Positions 3,682-16,333 of a DNA stretch of 64,000 nt are shown piece by piece. The notes beneath the pieces were generated by a model that was not told the origin of the DNA, searched no databases, and saw nothing but the letters and a program-made list of their open reading frames with translations. Location: the NCBI GenBank assembly GCA_965372795.1, contig CBDVDR010000003.1:128495-192494 (forward strand), read 5' to 3'. The translations under genes were made by a program, and so were the position numbers. Origin of the DNA: an uncultured bacterium (GTDB taxonomy: Bacteria > Zixibacteria > MSB-5A5 > GN15 > FEB-12). The first letter of the stretch is position 1, and every line of letters starts with the position of its first letter.

Positions 3682-6411
3682 TTACGGACATACCATAGGT
3701 GGCGCACCGCCATCAAAAACGTATCTCACCAGAAACGCTAAATCAATAATATTAATTTCCCCTTCTGGATCACCATTGACATTACTTGCATCACTACATG
3801 GCGGATGAGGACCGCCCAGGAAAAGATAGTCGACAAGAAATGTTATATCACTCATGTCAAGCACGCCCTGCGTGTCACCATTAACATTGCCAGTAAATCC
3901 AAAGCAACAAACTCCGGTAATATATACCGCAAATGTTCTTGAATAGTCAGACCAACTGTTACCATCGTTATATTTATAGCGCCAATAAAATACAGAATCA
4001 TTTCCAAGTGGAACTTCCGGTTGGTACTCAGGAAGAAGCAAACCAGTTATGTCAAAAATAGGATTTCTGAAATCATAATAACGATCAAGTTGGATTTGGT
4101 ATTCTTCGATATTGGCAATAGTATCAACCTGTCGATCCCATTCAAATAAAGGTCGAGAACGATCAGTAGGCATTCCATTGGGAGGTTGGATTGATGAAAT
4201 TTCTTCAACCGTATAATAAAACACTAAACTATCAACCAATGTCTTTATATTTCCGGAGGCGTTATAATTTAAAAATGAAATTGCCTGCTGTGATCCGTTT
4301 ATTCCTATAGCGATTGACATTGTTCCTTCATCGCTTGCTTCCGGTTCCATATCAGCGACAATAACGTATTCTCCATATTCCAAATTATAATCCATAGTTC
4401 TATCGTCGAGTGATCCATCACTGTCAACATCAAGTTCCTGAAATTCAGAACCGGCAACGGTTTGAATATCCTCGGAAATAATATAGCCATCAGGATTGTA
4501 GACTCTTACGGTTGTCTCGTCAAAGGCGGTAACAGTCATTTGATCAATTAGTATATCGGCACTGTCAGAAGGAGTAGTTGCCACCAACAAATCACCCCCA
4601 TTAAGGGCGCCAGAAATAAAATCAAAATTACCATCCCGATCTAAATCCAAAGATGCCAGAGCATATGTTTGTGAATTACTGGTTTGAAGATCAACATAGC
4701 TTGGTCCTTCAAAATTACCGCTCCCATCTCCAAAATAAATCTCAAGCTTTTGGGTAGTGCCATTGGCAATTATCATTTCCAAATTCCCATCCCGATCAGC
4801 ATCAGCAACAGCCAAATTATAGGCAATCCCATACACTCGAATAGTATCAGATTTTAGCAATGAACCGGTACCATCTCCAAGAGCATAGGTAATCATGCTT
4901 TCATTTGTTGAGTTTGTCAATGGAACCACCTGGGCAAAATCACAATTACCGTCATCATTAAAATCAACAACGATAGAAGCAGGAGTCAAATCAATTTTTG
5001 TATCACCAACAAAAATTGAAACTGATTGTTGAAATCCTCCATTGGTATCGTTGAGTAAGATTTTTGTCGAATCTCCATCTATACCGATAACGTCATCATA
5101 TCCATCATTGTTAAAATCACATGAATTGACCGCTTTAAAATTTGTACCAAGCGAAATTCCGGAATTAAAAACATTTAGATCATTGCCATAACGAATTTGA
5201 TCCGGAGCAATGATCAAATCAACATAAATATCAGAATTAAAATGACCAGTAACGAATGAAGGTGCGTTTAGTTCCAATAGGATATTTGAATATTTACTGG
5301 AAGCATTTAAGTTGGTGATCGGAATTGATTCTATATCAAAATTACGATTTCCAAGATTGTATAGGATATAAATATTATTAAGTGTGACAGCAATTATATC
5401 AACTAAGGTATCAGCATTAACATAACCAACATCTAATGCCGCTTGCTTTATCGCGAGATAACTTATCGGTTGTTCCGGATTTGATTCACCCGTACCAAAG
5501 GCAATAAACAATCCTTCAATTGAATTTCCGGTATAAATTATATCGGTATGGTTGTCACGGTCAAGATCAACCGTTTTAACATAATAAATATCAGCCGAAT
5601 CATTGCCAACAATTTCATATGGCAATATCGAGCTGTCACAATGATGTAATATTTCAATAAAGAAACAATCGTTTGCAGATGAGAAATTAACTGATTCACT
5701 CGGATTACAAGCCGAGTTCGGTTGTTCACCGGCTTCGGGAGCTCTTTCACCTGCATATTTAACGCGTACACTCAAACTTCCATAACTGTAAAGGGTATCA
5801 ATGCCACCAATAGAAAAACAGGCCAATCCGGATTCATCTGTTACAGCAAACAGATTCGGTGATTCTCCGGCATCAAGCCCGCAATCATCAAACCCCGGAG
5901 ATAATTCCAAAGTCCTGCCAGCTAATGGAGCCAATGAGCCGTCTTCGCACTCCTGATATAAGCCGGCACAAAATTCGATTACACTTGATGACGATAGAGT
6001 GTCAGGGCATACCAGTCCATTAAAAGTTGTTTCAAATTGAAGGATGGTTGAGCTGCTATTTAAAAATGTAGAAGTACCTAATCCTGTATTTGGATCAGTT
6101 GCACGAAATTCAATATTTTCAACACTTGAAAGATCATTAGTTAATTTCCAGTCAAGACTGAAACTTCCCTCAGAATCACTAATTACTGATTGACTCTGAT
6201 GAACTGTGCCAGCCTGATTGTCAGAGGTATAGTAAATCTCGTCAATTTGCAAATTTGTTAATTCAGAAAATAATTTGCCTTCGATTAAAATAATATCTCC
6301 GGAGAAATAGCTGTTGCCAATAAGTTTCAAATTAGCAGACATCAATGGAACAGCAAGAAAGACTATTAAAATATTAGACAAAAAAATTCTTAACCCATTT
6401 GGGTTATTCAT
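3682..6411 (-). CDS. Secreted FG-GAP/VCBS-repeat protein with C-terminal type-I dockerin-like module
   Basis: 909 aa with an N-terminal hydrophobic signal (LRIFLSNILIVFLAVPLMSA). It has many D-x-D/N-x-DG-x-x-D loops (DLDRDNHTD, DFNNDGYDD, DADRDGNLE, DLDRDGNFD) typical of FG-GAP beta-propeller blades. The last 69 aa (nt 3685-3891) hold two copies of NVNGD...(I/L)D(I/L)xFLVxY(L/V)F, which is a dockerin duplicated Ca-binding segment. Confidence 0.75.
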   Translation of the reverse strand: MNNPNGLRIFLSNILIVFLAVPLMSANLKLIGNSYFSGDIILIEGKLFSELTNLQIDEIYYTSDNQAGTVHQSQSVISDSEGSFSLDWKLTNDLSSVENIEFRATDPNTGLGTSTFLNSSSTILQFETTFNGLVCPDTLSSSSVIEFCAGLYQECEDGSLAPLAGRTLELSPGFDDCGLDAGESPNLFAVTDESGLACFSIGGIDTLYSYGSLSVRVKYAGERAPEAGEQPNSACNPSESVNFSSANDCFFIEILHHCDSSILPYEIVGNDSADIYYVKTVDLDRDNHTDIIYTGNSIEGLFIAFGTGESNPEQPISYLAIKQAALDVGYVNADTLVDIIAVTLNNIYILYNLGNRNFDIESIPITNLNASSKYSNILLELNAPSFVTGHFNSDIYVDLIIAPDQIRYGNDLNVFNSGISLGTNFKAVNSCDFNNDGYDDVIGIDGDSTKILLNDTNGGFQQSVSIFVGDTKIDLTPASIVVDFNDDGNCDFAQVVPLTNSTNESMITYALGDGTGSLLKSDTIRVYGIAYNLAVADADRDGNLEMIIANGTTQKLEIYFGDGSGNFEGPSYVDLQTSNSQTYALASLDLDRDGNFDFISGALNGGDLLVATTPSDSADILIDQMTVTAFDETTVRVYNPDGYIISEDIQTVAGSEFQELDVDSDGSLDDRTMDYNLEYGEYVIVADMEPEASDEGTMSIAIGINGSQQAISFLNYNASGNIKTLVDSLVFYYTVEEISSIQPPNGMPTDRSRPLFEWDRQVDTIANIEEYQIQLDRYYDFRNPIFDITGLLLPEYQPEVPLGNDSVFYWRYKYNDGNSWSDYSRTFAVYITGVCCFGFTGNVNGDTQGVLDMSDITFLVDYLFLGGPHPPCSDASNVNGDPEGEINIIDLAFLVRYVFDGGAPPMVCP

Positions 6412-7544: not shown

Positions 7545-8057
7545 TTAAATTGATTCCATGATTGATTCGGCTTGAATCTTCAAAGCTTTATTCATAGCAG
7601 TAAAACCGTTTTTGGTTTTTTCCTCAATACTGCTCCAAAGAGGAAGAACCAGAAAGCCGCTAAAATATTCTCCCTGGGTAAACCTGACTTTGCTATTAGA
7701 TATTGGTTCAATTTTAAAATAATGTTCACCGTCAAAAATCCCGGGTATTAAAATTCGTCCCAGCCAGCGCAATTCTGTGTTTGGGGTTGCGATCAATATT
7801 TCCGGATTAAACTCCATTCCATCTTCACCCGCCGGTTTAATGGTTACCCTTATCTGACTGCCCTCTTTCATTTCCCCAGATATATTAGTTATAAAAGGAT
7901 TCCATTTAGGATATTCATTGAAGTTAATCAAAATATTCCAAACATCTTCTGCAGAAGCATTAATCTCGATTTCACTATGTACCTCTCTTGAAGATGACAC
8001 GCTCAGTAAGAAGAGGGCAAGGATAATAGATGCAACTATGATTATAAATTTTTTCAA
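7545..8057 (-). CDS. SRPBCC (START/polyketide cyclase-like) family protein with N-terminal membrane anchor or signal
   Basis: 170 aa. Hydrophobic N-terminus MKKFIIIVASIILALFLL, then INASAEDVWNILINFNEYPKWNPF, typical of SRPBCC ligand-binding folds. Confidence 0.6.
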   Translation of the reverse strand: MKKFIIIVASIILALFLLSVSSSREVHSEIEINASAEDVWNILINFNEYPKWNPFITNISGEMKEGSQIRVTIKPAGEDGMEFNPEILIATPNTELRWLGRILIPGIFDGEHYFKIEPISNSKVRFTQGEYFSGFLVLPLWSSIEEKTKNGFTAMNKALKIQAESIMESI

Positions 8058-8261
8058 TAGAATTTCCTGACTTATAACCGCGTATAATAATTATTTTTAT
8101 ATATACGGACGGAGACTGTTGATAGTTGATATTTTATATAAATTATTATTGAGGTTTTTTGATGTGAATTAAATAACTTGATATAATTGTGATATTTTCA
8201 TTGATTATGGATTAGAATTGACTATTATATAAAACGATTAACATTTAATTTTGATGAAATA

Positions 8262-10550
8262 ATGAATCAGGAAAATAGTCAAAATAAAACAGAAATTTTC
8301 ATCCCGCTTAACAATGGTGATGAAGTCGCTCACTACCGAATTATAGAAAAAATTGGTGCCGGCGGGATGGGCGAAATTTATTTGGCTGAAGATACCAAAC
8401 TCGACCGGAAAGTTGCGTTGAAATTTCTACCTTCATCATTAATTTCCAACAATGAAATTAAAATCCGTTTTACTCGCGAGGCAAAAGCAGTTGCAAAATT
8501 AAGCCATCCTAACATCATTACTATTTACGATGTCGGGGAATATAAAGGGCGACCGTTTTTTGCAATGGAATATGTTGCCGGTAAAACTCTTCGTAATTTT
8601 AATGATGATAAAATGCCACCCATAAGTTCGATAGTTGATCTGTCAATCCAGCTATGTCAGGGGCTTGCCGAAGCCCATCGTATGGGTATTGTCCATCGAG
8701 ATATTAAATCTGCCAATATTATCGTAGATAAACAAAACCGATTACGTATTTTAGATTATGGTCTGGCTTCGGTTGTGGGAAGTGAAGATATAACCAAAAC
8801 AGGTTCAACTCTTGGCACGGTTTCATATATGTCGCCGGAACAAGTCTCGGGTCGGTCAGTTGATAAACGGTCAGATCTATTTTCATTCGGGGTCGTATTA
8901 TACGAACTGTTGACCGGACAACTGCCGTTTAAACGGGATAATGATGGCGCAACGCTTCAGGCACTAATGCAGGAACAACCGAATCCGCTCACTCGATATA
9001 GAAGTGACATTCCTGAAAGTCTCCAACAGATAGTATTAAAACTTCTTGAGAAAAATCTCGAAATTAGATATCAATCGGCAGAAGGCGTTATCGCTGATTT
9101 AAAAAGATTGTTATATGATTCCCATCAATCAACCGGATCGGTGTCATTTGATAGAGCGGATAATAAATCTATTGTTGTGGTCCCGTTTTCAAATTTATCG
9201 GCTGATGCTGATAATGAATATTTCTCAGATGGCTTAACTGAAGAAATAATAACAGACCTTTCTGGAATTAGTGATTTGCGGGTTATTTCAAGGTCATCGG
9301 CTCTTTTATTAAAGGGAACTAAAAAGGATGCACCGACAATTGGGAATGAATTGAATGTCAGATATATTTTAACCGGTTCGGTTCGAAAAGCCGGAAACAA
9401 AGTCAGGATTACTTCACAGCTGGTTGATGCGGTAACTAATCAACAGGTGTGGGCGGATAAATATAAAGGAACTCTTGAAGATATATTTGAAATTCAGGAG
9501 GAAGTTTCCCAGGCGATAGTTTCTAATCTGAATCTAAAATTAACCAGCGACGAAGAGATAAAATTGGCGGAGCGACCGATTGATGATCCCAAAGTGTATG
9601 AACTATTTTTGAGGGCGAAACAGAAAATTCATAATTGGAATGAAGAAGATTTATATATAGCTGAAAAATATCTCAAAGAAGGTCTCAAAATCAGCGGCGA
9701 CAATGCTTTGCTATTCGCCGGGCTTGCCCATGTATATTTTCAATTTGTCAACTCTGGTGTCAAACACGATGAATTTTATAAAATGGCTATTGATTATGCC
9801 AGTAAATCATTAGCCCTTGATCCGAATTTACCTCAAGCCCATCTAATGCAGGCGTTACTGACCCAGGCTTCTGATGGCAACCAACTTGATTGCATCATTC
9901 ATTTTAAAAAAGTACTGGAATTGGAACCTAATAATGCTGAGGCTCTTGGTTGGTATGCTCTTGAAAATGGGTTGATTGATAGAATCGATGAAGGTCGAAA
10001 AATAATTAAGAAAGCAATTGCTCTATCTCCGCTATCATTAGGTTTGAAAGGTGCTTCTTCGTTTATAGAGTTAATGGGTGGAAATTTTGATAAATTTATA
10101 GAAATTGTTGAAGAAATATATGATGTAGATCATAGTATTGCCTTCAGTCATGTTCGAATGTTATTTGCCTATAGTATTGTAGGCGATCTTGATAAAGCCG
10201 AGCCCTTTGTAAAACTTTTACACGGGAAAACATTTTTTGAGCGGATTACTTTAGCTCATTATTACGGAAAAAAGAACGAGGAAGAAAAAGGGCTGGCATA
10301 TATAACAGATGAAAATTTAACCACGGCTAAACGTGATGGTCAATACTCATTATGGATGGCACTGGTTTTCGAGGCTAATAAAGAATATGAGAAAACCATT
10401 GAGTGGCTTGAAAATGCGGCTAAGAATGGATTCCTAAATTATAAGTTCCTGTCTGAATATGATGAAACTTTTAAATCCATCAGGGATACTGATCGCTTCA
10501 AAAAACTTATCGCAAGCATGAAATCGAAACTTGCCAATTTGAATTATTAA
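8262..10550 (+). CDS. Ser/Thr protein kinase with TolB_N-like central domain and TPR C-terminus (paralog of 1-2267)
   Basis: 762 aa. Motifs GAGGMGEIYLA, VALKFL, HRDIKSANI, DYGLA and SPEQ. The central segment SIVVVPFSNLSADADNEYFSDGLTEEIITDLS aligns by eye with VTVVEIKNLANKTEFDYFCQGFTDDVITEIS of the first kinase. Confidence 0.9.
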   Translation: MNQENSQNKTEIFIPLNNGDEVAHYRIIEKIGAGGMGEIYLAEDTKLDRKVALKFLPSSLISNNEIKIRFTREAKAVAKLSHPNIITIYDVGEYKGRPFFAMEYVAGKTLRNFNDDKMPPISSIVDLSIQLCQGLAEAHRMGIVHRDIKSANIIVDKQNRLRILDYGLASVVGSEDITKTGSTLGTVSYMSPEQVSGRSVDKRSDLFSFGVVLYELLTGQLPFKRDNDGATLQALMQEQPNPLTRYRSDIPESLQQIVLKLLEKNLEIRYQSAEGVIADLKRLLYDSHQSTGSVSFDRADNKSIVVVPFSNLSADADNEYFSDGLTEEIITDLSGISDLRVISRSSALLLKGTKKDAPTIGNELNVRYILTGSVRKAGNKVRITSQLVDAVTNQQVWADKYKGTLEDIFEIQEEVSQAIVSNLNLKLTSDEEIKLAERPIDDPKVYELFLRAKQKIHNWNEEDLYIAEKYLKEGLKISGDNALLFAGLAHVYFQFVNSGVKHDEFYKMAIDYASKSLALDPNLPQAHLMQALLTQASDGNQLDCIIHFKKVLELEPNNAEALGWYALENGLIDRIDEGRKIIKKAIALSPLSLGLKGASSFIELMGGNFDKFIEIVEEIYDVDHSIAFSHVRMLFAYSIVGDLDKAEPFVKLLHGKTFFERITLAHYYGKKNEEEKGLAYITDENLTTAKRDGQYSLWMALVFEANKEYEKTIEWLENAAKNGFLNYKFLSEYDETFKSIRDTDRFKKLIASMKSKLANLNY

Positions 10551-10941
10551 TTTTTTTAATTCAACTATTCGCATCTATTACAATTTTAATTTAAAAAATT
10601 AGCTCAAGTAGGGTAAGATCCATGTGATCCTGCCAAACAAATGTTGAAACCGCAGGGGATCCAACCTACTCCTTAATATTTGACAAATTAGGATATTTTT
10701 GTATCTTAAATCATAATGTTTACTTCTTGATATATACAAACTTGTCGATATGCAGGGGATGCCTATGCAGTCAAAATTTGCTAAATTATTTATTGTTATA
10801 ATATGTGTCTTTACTTGTTCTTCGTTTGCTAAATCTGACTATAAAGACACCTTGTTTGGGGGAAAGACCTTATAACAAGTCAACTACGGCATTGATAGCA
10901 TCTCATTGGATATCAAGATTGGAATCGAACTTTAGCTTCAT

Positions 10942-11385
10942 TTATGATTCATCCTCTGTGATTGCATTATAAAATTTTAGTTTAAGCTCTTCATTATCCA
11001 TGTCATCATTTATGACAGCACAGATAATCTCATGCAAGAAATCTTTCTCAATTTTCCCAGCGGCAACATGATAACTTACATTTTCCATCTCCTGAATAAA
11101 TCTTCCTGCAACAAACACATATCCATTGTAAATGAGAAATTGTGCACCAAGAGCTATAGCAATTCGCTTATTACCATCTTGGAAACAATGAAAATTACAT
11201 GCAGAAAAAAACAAGTGCGTTAGTTTTTCTTCAAATGTCAAATAATATTCATCATTTTGTATATGTTGTAATGCACTCTGCAGAGCGCCAGTATCAATAA
11301 TACCAAGGGTCCCTCCGCCACTAACTTTAACAGTTGTTTTATGAATATCAATTGCTTGTTCAAGCGTGAGATAGACGAATGTCAC
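10942..11385 (-). CDS. doc: Doc (death-on-curing) type Fic-fold toxin
   Basis: 147 aa. The catalytic motif HCFQDGNKRIA matches the Doc variant HxFxDGNKR of the Fic motif. N-terminus LTLEQAIDIHKTTVKVSGGG...IDTGALQSAL is typical of Doc family toxins. The GTG start shares one nucleotide with the TAG stop of the upstream gene. Confidence 0.85.
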   Translation of the reverse strand: MTFVYLTLEQAIDIHKTTVKVSGGGTLGIIDTGALQSALQHIQNDEYYLTFEEKLTHLFFSACNFHCFQDGNKRIAIALGAQFLIYNGYVFVAGRFIQEMENVSYHVAAGKIEKDFLHEIICAVINDDMDNEELKLKFYNAITEDES

Positions 11386-12416
11386 TATTCACGCTCCTTG
11401 AGACGCTTGAATACTTCCTTAGATTCCTCAAGTCGATCAATGAGTTCCTTGCTCTTTTCACCAAGAAAACGCTCAAAATCAGCTGAGTCTAATGGAGTGA
11501 CATAGTCTTTTAATTGTAAGTGTAAAGCATCACGGAAAGCAAGATCACGGCTCGCCATCTTGGAGCGAGCCTTTTCAACAAGTGGTTGCCAGAGTGATTG
11601 GGTCTCAAACTCATCAAAAAGCTTATCTACTTCCCATGAAGTTAGTTTACGTTTTACTCTCTTGAATGCTTCTTCTATAACTTTTGCAAAACCAAATTCA
11701 TAAGACGAAATTAAATCCAATATCTCTGAATAGAAAGTATCCCTTACATTGTCTTTTTCTTTAAGTTTGAGAATCTTTCTATATTCCTTTGCATCTTCCT
11801 TAAAAATGCTAACATATATTTTATTTGTATAAGCGGGATATTTGAAATTACCCATATCAACATAGTCTCTCAAGGCGTCGGTAAATTCTTTGCGATAATT
11901 TTCTTCCTTGAAGTATGAGATGATAAAATCTTCATCTCGCTGATTGATATACTTAGTGCCACCACCTGTTTTTTTATTTTGTGTATCAATTACAATATCA
12001 AGGATTGCTTGGCGTAGTAGCCTTGCTCGCTCACTCTCTGTAATAAGCATGGCAAGGTTGAGAAAAGCCTTAAAGTCAAAGATCCCAAGAGCATTTATAG
12101 TGTGCAATTTTTTGCCTACGAAATCAGTTTCGTCATCATATTGTTCTTTGACTGCTAATTTGTAGTTCTGTAAGGACTTACCTCGTAAAACCTCGTAACC
12201 ATTTTGCTTTAATTCAGTTTCATACTTTGAGAGATAATTATCAATTGTTCTCGAAGTAACTCCAAAGAACTCAGCAACTTGCTCCTTAACAAGAGTTAAT
12301 TTTCCTTGATATGCAACTCCTTGCAGGTTAGTAGCTTTCTTAATTTCATCAATTGCATAAGGATTATTTAGAATATTCTGGCGATCGATATCTGAATTGG
12401 TTAAATCTTTACTCAT
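11385..12416 (-). CDS. 343-aa helix-turn-helix protein of unrecognised family; putative partner or antitoxin of Doc
   Basis: Intact ORF translationally coupled to doc. The N-terminal segment LVKEQVAEFFGVTSRTIDNYLSKY reads as an HTH. The rest is helical and charged, and I recognise no catalytic motif. It is reminiscent of the RhuM/Bro/KilA-type DNA-binding genes seen next to Fic/Doc genes inside R-M loci, but I cannot assign the family by eye. Confidence 0.6.
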   Translation of the reverse strand: MSKDLTNSDIDRQNILNNPYAIDEIKKATNLQGVAYQGKLTLVKEQVAEFFGVTSRTIDNYLSKYETELKQNGYEVLRGKSLQNYKLAVKEQYDDETDFVGKKLHTINALGIFDFKAFLNLAMLITESERARLLRQAILDIVIDTQNKKTGGGTKYINQRDEDFIISYFKEENYRKEFTDALRDYVDMGNFKYPAYTNKIYVSIFKEDAKEYRKILKLKEKDNVRDTFYSEILDLISSYEFGFAKVIEEAFKRVKRKLTSWEVDKLFDEFETQSLWQPLVEKARSKMASRDLAFRDALHLQLKDYVTPLDSADFERFLGEKSKELIDRLEESKEVFKRLKERE

Positions 12417-12417
12417 T

Positions 12418-12624
12418 TCAATCTTCCTTTATAGTCCGAAACACGATTTGTTCAGACTTCTCGCGACCTTGATTACGTGTCGCGAAAGTCTGAACAGCGT
12501 AGGCTTTAAGTTGATCATTTCCTTGAAACCATTGGTCAAGGCATATAAACTGTATTGGCTCTGCTTCTGCTATAGCGTCAATCAGCTCTTTTGTCACTTC
12601 ATCTTCAAGGCAGATAAGGAGCAT
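12418..12624 (-). pseudogene. C-terminal stub of an N6-adenine (Mod/type IIG-like) DNA methyltransferase
   Basis: The 68-aa ORF ends ...IQFICLDQWFQGNDQLKAYAVQTFATRN...IVFRTI. This resembles the conserved tail (xxLDxxFxGNDQLKxNxxxx...FRTI) I associate with Mod-type methylases. There is no catalytic domain upstream. An in-frame TGA lies 5 codons before the Met, and only AT-rich non-coding DNA follows to 12872. Its stop is 1 nt from the start of the 343-aa gene. Confidence 0.45.
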
Positions 12625-12835
12625 GCCCTTTGCTCTGTTTCAGCGATTTCTTTTAAGTAATTATAAATCATAATATTTCAAAAATAAAGTTTCAAAACTT
12701 AAAAACATAATCAACAAATTTAAATTAAATAAGAGACTCTTATCGATTATATGTTTAGAAACGGTCCCCAACCTATCTGTCAGTAATCATAACATAATAT
12801 GTCTTGTTTAAGCATTGTTATTGCATTCAATATAA

Positions 12836-14099: not shown

Positions 14100-15269
14100 A
14101 TGAACTTTAAGAAAAAGCCCTTTCAATTTTCTGCTATAGTTGGACAGGAAAAAATAAAAACTGCCTACTTAGCAAATATTGTTAATCCTAATATTGGCGG
14201 CTTGCTAATTAGTGGTCCCAAAGGAACCGGTAAAAGTACTATTGTTCACTCGGTTGATTCAATTCTTCCAAAATACAATGCTGTCGATGGGTGCGATTTT
14301 AATTGTGATCCTGACGCTCCTCAAAAATTCTGTTCCAATTGTAATGAATTATCAGAAATTTTACCTATTAATAAGAAAATGCGAATTGTCAATCTACCCC
14401 TGAGTTGCACCGAAGATCGTCTGTTGGGCTGTGTTGATATTGAAACTCTTCTGAAAACAGGCACAAAAAAAATCCAGGTAGGAATTCTCGGTGAAGCAAA
14501 CCGAAATATTCTATATGTTGATGAAGTAAACTTACTTCCAGATCACTTAGTAGATGACATCCTTGATGCTGCTGCTTCTCCATGGAATACTATCGAGCGG
14601 GATGGAATCTCTATTACCCATCCTGCCGAGTTTATTTTAATAGGCACAATGAATCCCGAAGAAGGGGAATTGCGACCGCAAATACTTGACCGGTTCGCAC
14701 TTTGTATAAAAGCTGAATCGATTCATGATCCTGCTCAAAGAGTTGAGATTGTCAAACGCACGCTTATGTATGAAAACAATCCTGATAAATTTATACGCAA
14801 CTTTGAAAATGAAGAAGCAACTCTGAAAACTGTTATATCAAAGGCACGTAAAATTTTAAATAAAGTTATGATTGATGAGGAGTTTTTGATTGTCGTTGCC
14901 GAAGCTAATGCAAAATTAAAAGTTGATGGACAACGGCCGGATATTGTGATTGTTAAAACAGCTCAAACAATTGCTGCCCTTGATGAACGAACCATAGTTG
15001 ATGAAAAAGATGTTTTATTGTCGGCAGAGTTAGCTCTGTCACATCGCACCCGTGATGGCGGGCTGCTGGAACCTCCGACACCGGATGAAATCATAGAAGC
15101 CTTTTCACCATCTCTAAAAAAAAGAAATATCAAATCTGAGAGTTCAAAGAAAAAATTTGTAAATACTTCCGGAAGCCTTGACAAAGATGTTGATAAGTTT
15201 ATTGACAGGGAAAACTTAACCAGTTCTGAAAAAAGTGCCGACGACTCAGAAACCGAAAAAAAAAAGTAA
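14100..15269 (+). CDS. ChlI/BchI-type AAA+ chelatase ATPase subunit
   Basis: 389 aa. FQFSAIVGQEKIKTAYLANIVNPNIGGLLISGPKGTGKST (Walker A), ILYVDEVNLLPDHLVD (Walker B), ERDGISITHPAEFILIGTMNPEEGELRPQILDRF (sensor/Arg finger region). It is collinear with BchI/ChlI as I remember it. It ends in a Ser/Lys/Glu-rich tail and the codons GAA AAA AAA AAG TAA. Confidence 0.85.
   Translation: MNFKKKPFQFSAIVGQEKIKTAYLANIVNPNIGGLLISGPKGTGKSTIVHSVDSILPKYNAVDGCDFNCDPDAPQKFCSNCNELSEILPINKKMRIVNLPLSCTEDRLLGCVDIETLLKTGTKKIQVGILGEANRNILYVDEVNLLPDHLVDDILDAAASPWNTIERDGISITHPAEFILIGTMNPEEGELRPQILDRFALCIKAESIHDPAQRVEIVKRTLMYENNPDKFIRNFENEEATLKTVISKARKILNKVMIDEEFLIVVAEANAKLKVDGQRPDIVIVKTAQTIAALDERTIVDEKDVLLSAELALSHRTRDGGLLEPPTPDEIIEAFSPSLKKRNIKSESSKKKFVNTSGSLDKDVDKFIDRENLTSSEKSADDSETEKKK
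15260..15266 (+). promoter_or_regulatory. Candidate -1 ribosomal frameshift (or transcriptional slippage) site A_AAA_AAG within an A10 run, immediately 5' of the ChlI stop codon
   Basis: In the zero frame the codons are ...GAA AAA AAA AAG TAA. A_AAA_AAG (15260-15266) is the same heptamer as the E. coli dnaX -1 frameshift site. The -1 frame is open from 15230 and continues without a stop into the VWA ORF through 16333. Confidence 0.5.
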
Positions 15270-15415
15270 AAGAAAATTATTCCCCGACAGCAAATGATAT
15301 TCGTACTGAAGAAATTAATTATTCCACAAAATCAAAAAACAGTAAATTTGATTCAATTAAACAATCAAGTAGATCAAAACTAAATATCCCACAATCATCA
15401 ATATCTGATAAAAGA

Positions 15416-16333
15416 TTGTTTCCAACTCTTGATGATTTTTATAAAAAGACAAGAACTTCATTATATAATCTGCTCAAGCAATTACGACGTTCAAATGTTA
15501 GATCAGCTCGGGGGAGCCGGAAACGTAGTCCGGTTGTCTCGTTAAATACCGGAAGGAATATCAGAACAATTAAATATAATAAAGGGAAAAACAGTTTGGC
15601 TCCGGTACCGACTATTGTAAAATCAATTTTGAACAACGGCTATAATATATCAAACAAGCGACTAAAAATTACAGATAATGATCTTGTCGGATGGCACCGA
15701 ACCGAATATGAAAGCCTGACTTTGGTATTGCTTGTCGATGTAAGTAAATCCACCTGGCCGTTTATTGAAGTATTCAAAGAGATACTGCAATCATTAACCG
15801 CGTATTTTGTGCGACATAATGATCGGGTTGGGATGATTTCACTGCAAGGTCTGCAGGCGCGCATCTTTAATCATCCAACTCACAATGTCAGAGTAGTAGC
15901 GCGGGGGCTGGGGAAATTAAAATTTCACGGTGAAACGCCGCTTGCTGATGGTTTACAAAAGTCATTGAATATGGCGAAAATTGAAAGAACTAAAAACCCC
16001 GGTTCAAAATGTTTGGTTATTTTGCTAAGTGATTGTTATCCCGAACCGGTTGCCCGGGGATGTGATAATCTTTTTGAGGATCCAGCTTATAAAGAATCAC
16101 TCAATTCTGCTTCAATATATAAAAAAGAGGATGTTACCTTATTAGTCATCAATCCTATGTTTGAAACTGAGGATGCTAAATTACCGGGAGAAGTTCTAGC
16201 TGAAAAAATTGTAAAAGCAAGCGGCGGGAAATTGATTAAACTTATCCGCCCGCATAACCGAAGACACCTTCGCCCCACCCGTGATGAGATGGATAAAATT
16301 CTTCGAGGTATAGAAACTTCGATGAAACACTAA
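15416..16333 (+). CDS. von Willebrand factor A (VWA) domain protein, ChlD/BchD C-terminal-like; probably the 3' part of a frameshifted ChlD-like gene
   Basis: The track ORF starts at a TTG with no Shine-Dalgarno, but the frame is open from 15230. MIDAS motif DVSKST (DxSxS) sits in LVLLVDVSKSTW. GETPLADGL and VILLSDC are typical of the VWA fold of chelatase D subunits. Confidence 0.8.
   Translation: MFPTLDDFYKKTRTSLYNLLKQLRRSNVRSARGSRKRSPVVSLNTGRNIRTIKYNKGKNSLAPVPTIVKSILNNGYNISNKRLKITDNDLVGWHRTEYESLTLVLLVDVSKSTWPFIEVFKEILQSLTAYFVRHNDRVGMISLQGLQARIFNHPTHNVRVVARGLGKLKFHGETPLADGLQKSLNMAKIERTKNPGSKCLVILLSDCYPEPVARGCDNLFEDPAYKESLNSASIYKKEDVTLLVINPMFETEDAKLPGEVLAEKIVKASGGKLIKLIRPHNRRHLRPTRDEMDKILRGIETSMKH

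What the first reader, a model, noticed from the sequence alone, without database searches (positions are those of the whole stretch)
10942..12416. Doc-type kinase toxin coupled to a large (343-aa) HTH protein instead of a Phd-type antitoxin
Canonical Doc toxins (motif HxFxDGNKR, here HCFQDGNKR) are neutralised by a ~70-aa Phd/YefM antitoxin encoded just upstream. Here the translationally coupled upstream gene is nearly five times that size. It has an N-terminal HTH and a long helical, charged body with no motif I recognise.

Similar large DNA-binding genes are seen next to Fic/Doc genes embedded in type I/III R-M loci, but their function is, as far as I know, uncharacterised. The pair could be one of two things:
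- an atypical toxin-antitoxin system,
- an abortive-infection back-up that fires when the associated R-M system is compromised.
Basis: partly seen in the sequence, partly recalled or inferred. Interest (0 to 1): 0.6.

Follow-up and report, generated by a model that had tools for sequence, protein, structure and literature searches.

The report
Doc toxin with giant DNA-binding partner
A Doc-type toxin gene sits behind a 343-aa DNA-binding gene in place of the usual small Phd antidote. The pair is real, widespread, very conserved and already listed as an untested phage-defence candidate, and here it has outlived the restriction-modification operon that once carried it.

Summary
**Observation:** confirmed. 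On the minus strand, a 343-aa gene (12416..11385) overlaps a 147-aa Doc gene (11385..10942) by one base (TAG/GTG). Doc passes the curated DOC_P1 threshold and carries HCFQDGNKR.

**The partner ("A"):**
- It matches no Pfam or NCBIfam family and no solved structure.
- Its N-terminus is an ORF6N/KilA-N-like HTH domain, followed by a long helical body and a conserved C-terminal tail.

**Prior listing:** both proteins match PADLOC candidate PDC-M59 (A: 6e-100; B: 2.5e-38). PDC-M59 is one of 145 untested "guilt-by-embedding" candidates.

**Distribution:** the pair occurs across many phyla. A is 66-85% identical although synonymous sites are saturated.

**Context:**
- About a quarter of relatives lie inside type III mod-A-doc-res operons; others lie in type I loci.
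- In this window only stubs remain: the last 68 aa of Mod and the first 39 aa of Res. The pair stands alone here.

**Genetic signature (toxin-antitoxin-like):**
- Every Doc-sampled locus with upstream sequence has A.
- Seven loci have a dead or lost Doc beside an intact A.
- Natural truncations keep A's C-terminal 89-174 aa together with an intact Doc.

**Most likely reading:** an autonomous Doc toxin-antitoxin or abortive-infection module neutralised through A's C-terminal region. The "R-M back-up" reading cannot apply at this locus.

**Rating:** new variant of a known kind, moderate interest.

The parts
11385..12416 (-). Gene A: 343-aa partner protein, the PADLOC PDC-M59A family. It has an ORF6N/HTH N-terminal domain, a helical body and a conserved C-terminal tail.
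   Evidence: ORF. PDC-M59A E 6.4e-100, full length. No Pfam or NCBIfam hit. AlphaFold2 model pLDDT 85. At least 7993 homologues.
10942..11385 (-). Doc gene: 147-aa Fic-fold Doc-type putative kinase toxin (PDC-M59B).
   Evidence: PF02661 E 1.4e-11. TIGR01550 45.3 bits against a cutoff of 38.65. PDC-M59B E 2.5e-38. Aligns to PDB 9VZC and 3K33.
11383..11387 (-). TAGTG junction. The stop codon of A and the GTG start of doc share one base, which indicates translational coupling. An AAGGAG Shine-Dalgarno lies 8 nt upstream, inside A.
   Evidence: Read directly from the sequence. The junction is -4 to +3 nt in nearly all related loci.
11164..11190 (-). Doc catalytic motif HCFQDGNKR (residues 66-74).
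   Evidence: The pattern H-x-F-x-D-G-N-K-R is kept in 68 of 68 paired homologues.
12042..12329 (-). ORF6N/KilA-N-like DNA-binding domain of A (residues 30-125). The HTH is at residues 44-64 (window 12225-12287).
   Evidence: 10 of 33 family members hit Pfam ORF6N PF10543, best E 1.2e-5. BFVD fold hits are KilA-N, antirepressor and regulatory phage proteins, E 7e-5 to 1e-3. PHROG 2657 "transcriptional regulator" E 1.5e-7.
11388..11501 (-). Conserved C-terminal tail of A (residues 306-343, ...FERFLGEKSKELIDRLEESKEVFKRLKERE). This is the candidate Doc-neutralising element.
   Evidence: Mean column conservation is 0.84, against 0.71 for the DNA-binding domain. pLDDT is only 51-54 for residues 321-343. 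R338 and L339 are nearly invariant, present in at least 90% of an alignment whose members reach down to 33% identity. The shortest natural truncation still followed by a Doc ORF starts at residue 255 (L089), but there the contig ends at Doc residue 99. The truncations followed by a complete Doc start at residues 213 (L090) and 170 (L091). All of these keep the tail.
12418..12633 (-). Relic of a type III Mod methyltransferase. Only the last ~68 aa remain, as a 68-aa ORF 12624..12418.
   Evidence: tblastn gives 72% identity to Mod C-termini, E 4.5e-33 and 60% identity, E 1e-20. PADLOC MTase_III positions 566-611 of 621. Stop codons lie upstream in all frames.
10825..10941 (-). Relic of the type III Res gene. 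The first ~39 codons start right after the doc stop (TAAATG) and are interrupted by two stop codons.
   Evidence: 58% identity to Res N-termini, E 6.7e-9. The translation reads MKLKFDSNLDIQ*DAINAVVDLL*.
12667..12695 (-). Best sigma-70-like promoter match upstream of the relic-A-doc transcription unit (TTGAAA-17-TATGAT).
   Evidence: 10 of 12 positions match. This is a consensus match only. Counts in the region are not above those in shuffled sequence.
12450..12496 (.). Strong hairpin or palindrome (17-bp stem with one bulge) inside the Mod relic, 35-80 nt upstream of the A start. It could be a regulatory site, and it is specific to this locus.
   Evidence: -34.8 kcal/mol, z = -5.3. It is not conserved in about 75 related loci.

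Best explanation
The two genes form an autonomous toxin-antitoxin-type module. It is PADLOC candidate PDC-M59.

**Doc (inferred from homology).** Doc is a Fic-fold kinase. Like P1 Doc, it would phosphorylate EF-Tu and stop translation.

**Gene A.** The 343-aa protein is made first from the same mRNA, and doc translation is coupled to it. This much is shown by gene order, the overlap and the Shine-Dalgarno site.
- A most likely holds Doc inactive by direct binding through its conserved C-terminal region (residues 255-343, especially the tail 306-343). This would work in the way the C-terminal helices of Phd, and the "Phd-C" element of PanA, cover the Doc active site. This step is inferred.
- A's N-terminal ORF6N/HTH domain binds DNA, either for autoregulation or to sense a trigger. 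This step is also inferred.

**Origin and present state.** The module lives mainly inside R-M operons (type III mod-A-doc-res, or type I) and on mobile elements. At this locus the host type III operon has decayed to two short stubs, and only the pair has stayed intact.

**Likely biological role.** The module probably arrests translation when A is lost or displaced. That would give abortive infection of phage, post-segregational stabilisation of the carrying element, or both.
For: **Toxin identity**
- Doc identity and an intact catalytic motif.
- The motif is kept in 68 of 68 homologues.

**Operon and linkage**
- Antitoxin-first bicistron with a 1-nt overlap, conserved across loci.
- The pairing persists down to 36% A identity and 42-43% identity (L133).

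**Asymmetry typical of toxin-antitoxin pairs**
- In a Doc-centred sample, 41 of 41 loci with upstream sequence have A directly upstream. The only exceptions are loci where Doc itself is broken.
- In the A-centred sample, Doc is frameshifted, stopped, truncated or deleted beside an intact A in L005, L016, L018, L021, L022, L040 and L066.

**Natural N-terminal truncations of A**
- Unrelated host-gene fragments are fused in frame to A residues 255-343, 213-343 or 170-343. A Doc gene follows each (L089-L091). It is complete in L090 and L091; in L089 the contig ends at Doc residue 99.

**C-terminal tail**
- The tail is highly conserved but poorly ordered in the monomer model.

**Precedent**
- A large accessory antitoxin can neutralise Doc through C-terminal helices: PanA Phd-C in PMC10440598.

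**Selection and co-inheritance**
- dN is 0.10-0.31 while dS is saturated, so both genes are under strong purifying selection, including in stand-alone loci.
- Pairwise identities of A and Doc correlate (r = 0.57).

**Mobility and defence context**
- R-M embedding and BREX BrxC neighbours.
- Carriage next to the integrase of Streptococcus satellite phages.
- Both PADLOC PDC-M59 models match.

**Survival after R-M decay**
- Mod and Res relics flank the pair here and in about 12 other loci.
Against: - No experiment exists for this family. PDC-M59 is one of 145 untested candidates.
- No model of the complex could be made.
- No natural full A-Doc fusion exists among the hits.
- The resemblance of A's tail to the Doc-binding helix of Phd (LGEKSKELIDR against LDSTNKELVNR) is not statistically significant: hmmsearch p ~0.05, hhalign P 0.05-0.16.
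- A is more conserved than Doc: mean pairwise identity 70.6% against 65.7%, and A is the more conserved partner in 83.5% of locus pairs. This is unusual for a simple labile antitoxin and hints at an additional constrained function.
- The truncation evidence rests on three short metagenome contigs that could be assembly chimeras.
- The A-centred sample is biased towards intact A.
- A few A homologues have no Doc downstream (L022, L087).
Confidence: 0.55

Rival explanations
1. **PrrC-style R-M guard.** Doc, with A as adaptor, is kept silent by the Mod/Res complex of the operon it sits in. It is unleashed when a phage anti-restriction protein disables that enzyme.
For: - The pair is embedded between mod and res, and doc/res junctions are as tight as -4 nt (L023, L039, L047, L063).
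- 18 of 76 upstream neighbours are type III Mod and 16 of 67 downstream neighbours are Res.
- More distant lineages sit in type I contexts.
- PrrC is cited as the archetype of embedded systems in the PADLOC embedding paper.
Against: - At this locus the R-M is gone. The Mod stub is 68 aa and the Res stub is 39 aa with two stops, and there are no other R-M genes in the 64 kb.
- Many pairs stand alone among housekeeping genes, for example panB-[A-doc]-panC in L005 and also L003. They are still under strong purifying selection.
- Silencing therefore cannot depend on Mod or Res.
- In Ilyobacter the pair lies after res, not between the genes.
Confidence: 0.12
2. **Pure addiction element.** The molecular mechanism is the same (A neutralises Doc), but there is no role in phage defence. 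The module merely stabilises the R-M operon, plasmid or satellite that carries it by post-segregational killing.
For: - The pair outlives its R-M operon here and in about 12 other loci. That is the behaviour expected of an element that is hard to delete.
- It is carried on a megaplasmid and on phage satellites next to the integrase.
- P1 Phd-Doc itself is a plasmid-addiction system (established knowledge).
Against: - Saturated dS with 66-85% protein identity across phyla implies long-term selection on the protein functions, not just persistence.
- The tight association with defence loci and satellite cargo positions is typical of anti-phage systems.
- Chromosomal stand-alone copies have nothing obvious to stabilise.
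Confidence: 0.25
3. **A is not a simple binding antitoxin.** It could be an enzyme or target protector that reverses or prevents Doc's modification, in the way DarG acts. Alternatively it could be a DNA-state sensor whose helical body carries the main, highly constrained activity.
For: - A is larger and more conserved than the toxin.
- It has invariant polar clusters: TGGGTKYINQRDEDF at residues 150-164 and KMASRDLAFRDALH at residues 286-299.
- It has no known fold relatives apart from weak DdrC and KilA-N-type hits.
Against: - No catalytic motif or enzyme fold was recognised: Pfam, NCBIfam, a profile search against PDB sequences and Foldseek were all negative.
- Natural truncations that remove residues 1-169, 1-212 or 1-254 still sit before a Doc ORF. 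That Doc is complete in two of the three, and cut by the contig end in L089. This suggests the body is dispensable for keeping Doc tolerable.
Confidence: 0.12
4. **Regulatory pair, not toxic.** A acts as a controller-type transcription factor for R-M establishment, and Doc is a regulatory kinase acting on A or on R-M subunits.
For: - A has a DNA-binding domain.
- The pair sits between mod and res, where timing control would matter.
Against: - Stand-alone pairs with no R-M to regulate are common and conserved.
- Doc passes the trusted cutoff for the toxin family and keeps the complete P1-type catalytic loop.
- Recurrent inactivation of Doc, but never of A alone in the loci sampled (which were retrieved through A and so favour intact A), fits a harmful gene.
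Confidence: 0.06

Closest known systems
Phd-Doc of phage P1 and chromosomal Phd-Doc (PDB 3K33, 3DD7; E. faecalis 9VZC, PMC13034048)
   Same: - The toxin family and catalytic loop are the same (H66...K73 R74 equivalents).
- Both are antitoxin-first overlapping bicistrons.
- Neutralisation is expected to occur through a C-terminal helical element of the upstream protein.
   Different: - The upstream protein is 343 aa, not ~73 aa.
- It has no PhdYeFM domain (PF02604 absent) and carries an ORF6N/HTH domain plus a ~200-aa helical body.
- Similarity of its tail to Phd residues 52-73 is not significant.
- It is more conserved than its toxin.
Doc:PanA with a "Phd-C" element (Corynebacterium doosanense; Ernits et al. 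2023, PMC10440598)
   Same: A large globular antitoxin whose accessory domain is not the neutraliser. Doc is blocked by two C-terminal helices appended to it. A's last two helices (residues 311-318 and 321-342) are placed the same way.
   Different: - A has no Panacea/DUF4065 domain.
- The neutralising role of its tail is inferred here, not tested.
PADLOC phage-defence candidate PDC-M59 (Payne et al. 2024, bioRxiv 10.1101/2024.01.29.577857)
   Same: Both HMMs match essentially end to end: M59A E 6.4e-100 over positions 2-335 of 338, and M59B E 2.5e-38. This window's pair is a member of that catalogued family.
   Different: - PDC-M59 is only a candidate, defined by embedding in BREX, DISARM or type I R-M, and is untested.
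PrrC-EcoprrI (anticodon nuclease embedded in a type Ic R-M operon)
   Same: A toxic effector gene nested inside an R-M operon. It is the archetype of the "embedded back-up" idea.
   Different: - PrrC is silenced by the R-M enzyme itself and is almost always embedded.
- This pair brings its own partner and is frequently free-standing.
RhuM family (PF13310, also called PDC-S05; reported anti-phage in PMC12881386)
   Same: - Both are R-M-associated proteins with an HTH/ORF6N-type N-terminus.
- RhuM lies next to the pair in L069 and L002.
- Doc gives a weak PADLOC hit to PDC-S05 (E 1.2e-3).
   Different: - A does not hit PF13310.
- hhalign of A or Doc against a RhuM protein is not significant (P 0.12-0.17).
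- RhuM is a single gene.
AbiE (AbiEi-AbiEii) type IV toxin-antitoxin / abortive-infection system
   Same: A large winged-HTH antitoxin (~200-300 aa), with DNA-binding and C-terminal neutralising parts, sits upstream of an enzyme toxin. The system has both abortive-infection and stabilisation roles.
   Different: The toxin family is unrelated (a nucleotidyltransferase) and the antitoxin fold is unrelated. The only link is one weak AbiEi_4 hit, in 1 of 33 members at E 0.031.

Membership tests
Doc toxins (Fic-fold kinases; TIGR01550 DOC_P1 / PF02661) | Match to the family model above the curated threshold | tested here: met
   TIGR01550 scores 45.3 bits against a cutoff of 38.65. PF02661 scores 45.6 bits against a cutoff of 24.
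Doc toxins (Fic-fold kinases; TIGR01550 DOC_P1 / PF02661) | Doc-type catalytic loop H-x-F-x-(D/N)-(A/G)-N-K-R, with K in place of the Fic G and no trailing xxR | tested here: met
   HCFQDGNKRIAI at residues 66-77. It aligns with HIFNDANKR of P1 Doc. The motif is kept in 68 of 68 homologues.
Doc toxins (Fic-fold kinases; TIGR01550 DOC_P1 / PF02661) | Phosphorylates EF-Tu (T382) and arrests translation; toxic when unopposed | not testable with these tools
   Inferred from homology only (Castro-Roa 2013, as cited in PMC10440598).
Phd/YefM-Doc type II toxin-antitoxin system | Upstream antitoxin belongs to the Phd/YefM family (PF02604, ~70-90 aa) | tested here: not met
   The 343-aa protein gives no PF02604 hit at E <= 1. 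True Phd proteins do carry PF02604.
Phd/YefM-Doc type II toxin-antitoxin system | Antitoxin-first bicistronic operon with coupled translation | tested here: met
   TAGTG overlap and an internal Shine-Dalgarno. Conserved across loci.
Phd/YefM-Doc type II toxin-antitoxin system | The toxin gene is not found intact without its antitoxin, whereas the antitoxin can outlive the toxin | tested here: met
   41 of 41 Doc-sampled loci with upstream sequence have A. Seven loci have an intact A with a dead or lost Doc. The samples are modest, and the A-centred one is biased.
Phd/YefM-Doc type II toxin-antitoxin system | Neutralisation by a C-terminal helix homologous to Phd 52-73 bound in the Doc groove | tested here: inconclusive
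   The motif resemblance has P 0.05-0.16. Natural truncations keep the C-terminus.
PADLOC PDC-M59 (two-gene phage-defence candidate) | Adjacent genes matching the PDC-M59A and PDC-M59B models | tested here: met
   E 6.4e-100 and E 2.5e-38; the genes overlap.
PADLOC PDC-M59 (two-gene phage-defence candidate) | Confers protection against phage | not testable with these tools
   No paper mentions PDC-M59. The source preprint lists all 145 PDCs as untested.
PrrC-like R-M-embedded guard | Effector embedded in an intact R-M operon whose enzyme silences it | tested here: not met
   Only Mod and Res stubs flank the pair, and there is no R-M elsewhere in the window. About a quarter of relatives are embedded, but many stand alone.
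PanA (Panacea, DUF4065) antitoxins | Panacea domain in the antitoxin | tested here: not met
   No DUF4065 hit, either for A or among 33 family members at E <= 1.
RhuM family (PF13310) | Match to Virulence_RhuM | tested here: not met
   No hit for A or Doc. hhalign against a bona fide RhuM gives P 0.12-0.17.
ORF6N / KilA-N superfamily DNA-binding domains | N-terminal domain matches the ORF6N profile or the KilA-N fold | tested here: inconclusive
   The window protein itself does not hit the profile. 10 of 33 relatives do (best E 1.2e-5). The AlphaFold2 model matches viral KilA-N and antirepressor models at E 7e-5 to 1e-3 but with low TM scores of 0.26-0.33.

The most novel reading that the evidence does not exclude
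A is a sensor-antitoxin rather than a passive plug. Its ORF6N/KilA-N-type domain and its unusually constrained helical body would recognise a phage-derived or restriction-derived cue. That cue could be a phage protein related to the antirepressor-like proteins A resembles, or DNA ends or unmodified DNA produced when type III or type I restriction fails or fires. On recognition, A would release its C-terminal tail from Doc. DNA-level immunity would then be wired to an EF-Tu-kinase translation shut-off. The module could also work alone once the R-M system is lost. This would define a new, structurally uncharacterised antitoxin/sensor fold present in thousands of genomes.
Probability: 0.2. Interest if true: 0.7.

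Novelty: new variant of a known kind. Interest (0 to 1): 0.45.

Why it matters
**If the model holds:**
- A very widespread protein family would gain a function. It has at least 7993 sequences and about 1000 clusters at 50% identity, and it has no Pfam entry and no solved structure.
- That function would be a large DNA-binding antitoxin or sensor for a Doc kinase.
- It would explain what one common class of "extra" genes inside type III and type I R-M operons does.

**Testable predictions from the relic-flanked copies:**
- The pair is harder to lose than the R-M genes around it.
- The last ~90 residues of A are the part that cannot be lost while Doc is active.

**Tractable starting points:** cultured carriers exist, namely Ilyobacter polytropus DSM 2926 and the Streptococcus satellite phages.

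**Limit on novelty:** the pair is already catalogued as PADLOC PDC-M59, and the concept of Doc with a non-Phd antitoxin has precedents.

Tried and rejected

2. **Search for natural A-Doc fusions, using a concatenated query.**
   - No full fusions were found.
   - Only junction-spanning deletion products turned up: P0168, P0161, P0187, P0212, P0255, P0271.

3. **Homology of A's tail to the Doc-binding C-terminus of Phd.**
   - By eye the resemblance is attractive.
   - It is not significant: HMM p ~0.05, hhalign P 0.05-0.16.
   - The Phd homologue set was too shallow to help.

4. **Fold and profile searches for A.**
   - PDB Foldseek gave only weak DdrC hits (E 0.018, TM 0.23-0.42).
   - A profile search against PDB sequences gave nothing.

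5. **A conserved operator or hairpin upstream of A.** The strong hairpin at 12450-12496 is unique to this locus, so it is not a family feature.

6. **RhuM relationship.** Not supported statistically.

7. **dN/dS.** It could not be computed because dS is saturated. Only dN values are reported.

8. **A 15-nt direct repeat bracketing the cassette as an insertion scar.** About 0.5 such pairs are expected by chance, so I did not rely on it.

9. **The Fic inhibitory motif (S/T)xxxE(G/N).** It appears at SIFKED/SIFKEN (residues 203-208), but the last position is not conserved. I dismissed it as probably chance (inspection).
Full report
**1. What is in the sequence**

Both genes lie on the minus strand.
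- A 343-aa ORF, here called A, runs 12416..11385. It has an ATG start and an AAGGA Shine-Dalgarno.
- A 147-aa ORF runs 11385..10942 and starts with GTG. That GTG shares one base with A's TAG stop (AAGGAGCGTGAATAGTG), and an AAGGAG Shine-Dalgarno lies inside A's 3' end.

The second protein is a Doc.
- It hits Pfam Fic at E 1.4e-11 and NCBIfam TIGR01550 DOC_P1 at 45.3 bits, above the 38.65 cutoff.
- It aligns to P1 Doc (3K33) and E. faecalis Doc (9VZC).
- It carries HCFQDGNKR at residues 66-74, the same positions as the P1 catalytic loop.

**2. The partner protein**

A matches no Pfam or NCBIfam family.

An AlphaFold2 model built from 33 homologues is confident (pLDDT 85, pTM 0.75). It shows three parts:
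- a small alpha/beta DNA-binding domain at residues ~30-125, with the HTH at 44-64;
- a long helical body;
- two terminal helices, of which the last (residues 321-342) has pLDDT of only ~52.

Comparisons with known structures and families gave the following.
- Foldseek against the PDB finds nothing significant. The best hit is DdrC at E 0.018 with TM 0.23-0.42.
- A family profile finds no solved relative.
- Against viral models, the hits are KilA-N, antirepressor and "regulatory protein" phage proteins at E 7e-5 to 1e-3.
- 10 of 33 family members hit Pfam ORF6N, with best E 1.2e-5.
- PHROG 2657 "transcriptional regulator" matches residues 32-257 at E 1.5e-7.

So A is an ORF6N/KilA-N-type DNA-binding domain followed by an uncharacterised helical domain and a conserved tail.

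**3. The pair is already catalogued, but untested**

PADLOC-DB matches A to PDC-M59A (E 6.4e-100, full length) and Doc to PDC-M59B (E 2.5e-38). PDC systems are 145 candidates defined by "guilt-by-embedding" in BREX, DISARM and type I R-M loci, and the authors state they are untested. No paper in the library mentions PDC-M59.

**4. Distribution and conservation**

- A has at least 7993 homologues in the 5.8-billion-protein set.
- It has 1016 cluster representatives at 50% identity, with full-length members down to ~33% identity.
Only the best 80 were examined in detail. They come from Zixibacteria, Ignavibacteria, Planctomycetota, Spirochaetota, Desulfobacterota, Chlorobiota, Verrucomicrobiota, Cloacimonadota, Nitrosomonas, Campylobacterota and Clostridia. 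All 80 are 66-85% identical to the window protein.
- This is not recent transfer. Synonymous sites are saturated, while dN is 0.10-0.24 for A and 0.14-0.31 for Doc.
- A is the more conserved partner. Mean pairwise identity is 70.6% for A and 65.7% for Doc, and A is higher in 83.5% of locus pairs. The two identities correlate (r = 0.57).
- The Doc loop H-x-F-x-D-G-N-K-R is intact in 68 of 68 homologues.

**5. Linkage**

- In the 80 A-sampled loci, nearly every locus with downstream room has Doc at a -4 to +3 nt junction.
- The pairing holds at 36% A identity.
- To remove the sampling bias I fetched 43 metagenome loci using Doc as the query. All 41 with upstream sequence have A directly upstream. 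The only anomalies are L117, an internal deletion that fuses A 1-143 to Doc 28-147, and L134, where Doc is deleted.
- Conversely, seven A-sampled loci have an intact A with a frameshifted, stopped, truncated or deleted Doc: L005, L016, L018, L021, L022, L040 and L066.

Doc never alone, and A sometimes alone, is the classic toxin-antitoxin asymmetry.

**6. Context, and what happened at this locus**

- Among immediate neighbours, 18 of 76 upstream genes are type III Mod methylases. 16 of 67 downstream genes are type III Res.
- This gives mod-A-doc-res operons, with doc/res overlaps of 4 nt in some.
- More distant lineages, from rumen and gut, sit next to type I specificity subunits.
- BrxC, RhuM, hsdM and hsdR also occur as neighbours.
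- Many pairs sit alone among housekeeping genes, for example between panB and panC.

In the window:
- The 68-aa ORF just upstream of A (12624..12418) is the C-terminal end of a type III Mod (72% identity, E 4.5e-33).
- The 117 nt just after the doc stop encode the first 39 residues of Res (58% identity, E 6.7e-9), interrupted by two stop codons.
- No other R-M gene exists in the 64 kb.

About a dozen other "stand-alone" loci keep similar stubs, with the last 26-87 aa of Mod and/or the first 22-40 aa of Res. The locus is therefore a decayed type III operon in which only A-doc survived intact.

**7. Which part of A matters**

- The tail (residues 306-343) is more conserved than the DNA-binding domain (0.84 against 0.71). 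R338 and L339 are nearly invariant (present in at least 90% of the alignment) in a set reaching down to 33% identity. Yet the tail is poorly ordered in the monomer model. That is the profile of a segment that folds on binding a partner.
- Three metagenome contigs carry chimeric ORFs. In each, a fragment of an unrelated gene (aldehyde dehydrogenase, a GT2 glycosyltransferase, DctQ) is fused in frame to A residues 255-343, 213-343 or 170-343. A complete Doc follows the last two (L090, L091). In L089, which has the shortest retained part of A, the contig ends at Doc residue 99.
- All deletions that remove the tail also remove Doc's N-terminal half. That is geometrically expected for junction-spanning deletions, so it is weak evidence.
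- Precedent: in Doc:PanA, two C-terminal "Phd-C" helices of a large antitoxin neutralise Doc while the globular domain is accessory (PMC10440598).
- A's LGEKSKELIDR looks like Phd's LDSTNKELVNR, but this is not significant (p ~0.05 to 0.16).

**8. Mechanism I commit to (confidence ~0.55)**

This is an autonomous Doc toxin-antitoxin-type module.
- Shown: operon structure, coupling, strict co-occurrence, the asymmetry of decay, an intact catalytic loop, strong purifying selection, association with defence loci and mobile elements, and survival after R-M loss.
- Inferred: Doc phosphorylates EF-Tu and is toxic. A binds Doc through its C-terminal ~90 residues. The ORF6N domain autoregulates or senses. 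Loss or displacement of A triggers translation arrest, giving abortive infection and/or addiction.

That A is more conserved than Doc is the main oddity. It keeps open a sensor or enzymatic role for the helical body.

**9. Mobile and culturable carriers**

- Ilyobacter polytropus DSM 2926 megaplasmid pILYOP01 has mod-res-A-doc. The genes are annotated "DNA-binding protein" and "death-on-curing family toxin".
- Streptococcus satellite phages Javan742, 758, 313 and 319 carry A between the cI-like gene and the integrase. There A is mis-named "CiaB protein" and is 43-46% identical. It is followed by a Doc that is 43% identical and carries FHMFNDGNKR.

**10. Verdict**

- The finding is real and correctly described.
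- The toxin-antitoxin reading is supported genetically but not biochemically.
- The R-M back-up reading does not fit this locus.
- Novelty is limited by the existing PDC-M59 entry and the PanA-Doc precedent.
- The partner protein remains a large, extremely conserved family with no Pfam entry and no solved structure.
- Interest: 0.45.

Noticed in passing
window 12450-12496: A strong hairpin or palindrome lies inside the Mod relic, 35-80 nt upstream of the A start codon. It has a 17-bp stem with one bulge and a ~12-nt loop, and folds at -34.8 kcal/mol (z = -5.3 against shuffles). It is absent at the equivalent place in about 75 related loci, so it evolved after the mod gene died. It could be an operator, an RNA-stabilising element or an insulating element.
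   Followed up: partly
window 10707-10721 and 12664-12678: An imperfect 15-nt direct repeat (TAAATCATAATGTTT / TAAATCATAATATTT) brackets the whole Res-relic/doc/A/Mod-relic segment, 1957 bp apart. By my estimate about 0.5 such pairs are expected by chance in this AT-rich stretch, so it may or may not be an insertion scar.
   Followed up: partly
L089 606-1463; L090 550-1101; L091 3-725: These metagenome ORFs fuse a fragment of an unrelated host gene (aldehyde dehydrogenase, GT2 glycosyltransferase, DctQ) in frame to the C-terminal 89-174 residues of A. A Doc gene follows each one: complete in L090 and L091, and cut off by the contig end at residue 99 in L089. They are either natural deletion derivatives or assembly chimeras.
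   Followed up: partly
L136 (Streptococcus satellite phage Javan742) 5995-7451; also Javan758, Javan313, Javan319: Phage satellites of S. pneumoniae and S. mitis carry the A-Doc pair between a cI-like HTH gene and the integrase. There A is annotated "CiaB protein", which looks like a mis-annotation.
   Followed up: partly
L135 (Ilyobacter polytropus DSM 2926 plasmid pILYOP01) 1895-8450: A cultured organism carries mod-res-A-doc, so the pair lies after res rather than between mod and res. The locus sits beside an S24 peptidase gene and replication genes on a 962-kb replicon.
   Followed up: no
L021 10-3628; L022 ~8001-9439: In L021, mod-A-res has Doc deleted except for its last ~27 codons. In L022, an intact A is followed by an unrelated 140-aa ORF in place of Doc. 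Both are cases of A surviving without the toxin.
   Followed up: partly
protein P0123 (639 aa): A C5 cytosine DNA methylase domain (PF00145, residues 4-193) is joined to a full-length A (residues 300-639). This is either a real fusion or a read-through call. It suggests the pair is also embedded behind type II-like methylases.
   Followed up: no
L069 6792-7916; L002 11614-11943: A RhuM-family gene (PF13310) lies directly next to the pair. RhuM is PADLOC PDC-S05, which is reported to give ~1000-fold protection against T7 and T5 in PMC12881386. Doc shows a weak PADLOC hit to PDC-S05 (E 1.2e-3), but hhalign gives P 0.12, so any relationship is unresolved.
   Followed up: partly
window 14100-16333: A MoxR/Mg-chelatase-like AAA+ ATPase gene (389 aa) is followed by a VWA-domain gene (305 aa), on the opposite strand to the pair. 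This is a common two-gene arrangement and is unrelated to the finding.
   Followed up: no
window 8262-10550: A 762-aa Ser/Thr protein kinase with a C-terminal TPR region lies immediately beyond the Res relic. A second kinase-TPR gene lies further out, beyond the 909-aa gene at 3682-6411: the record annotation shows a 794-aa kinase-TPR product there. These are host genes, not part of the cassette.
   Followed up: no
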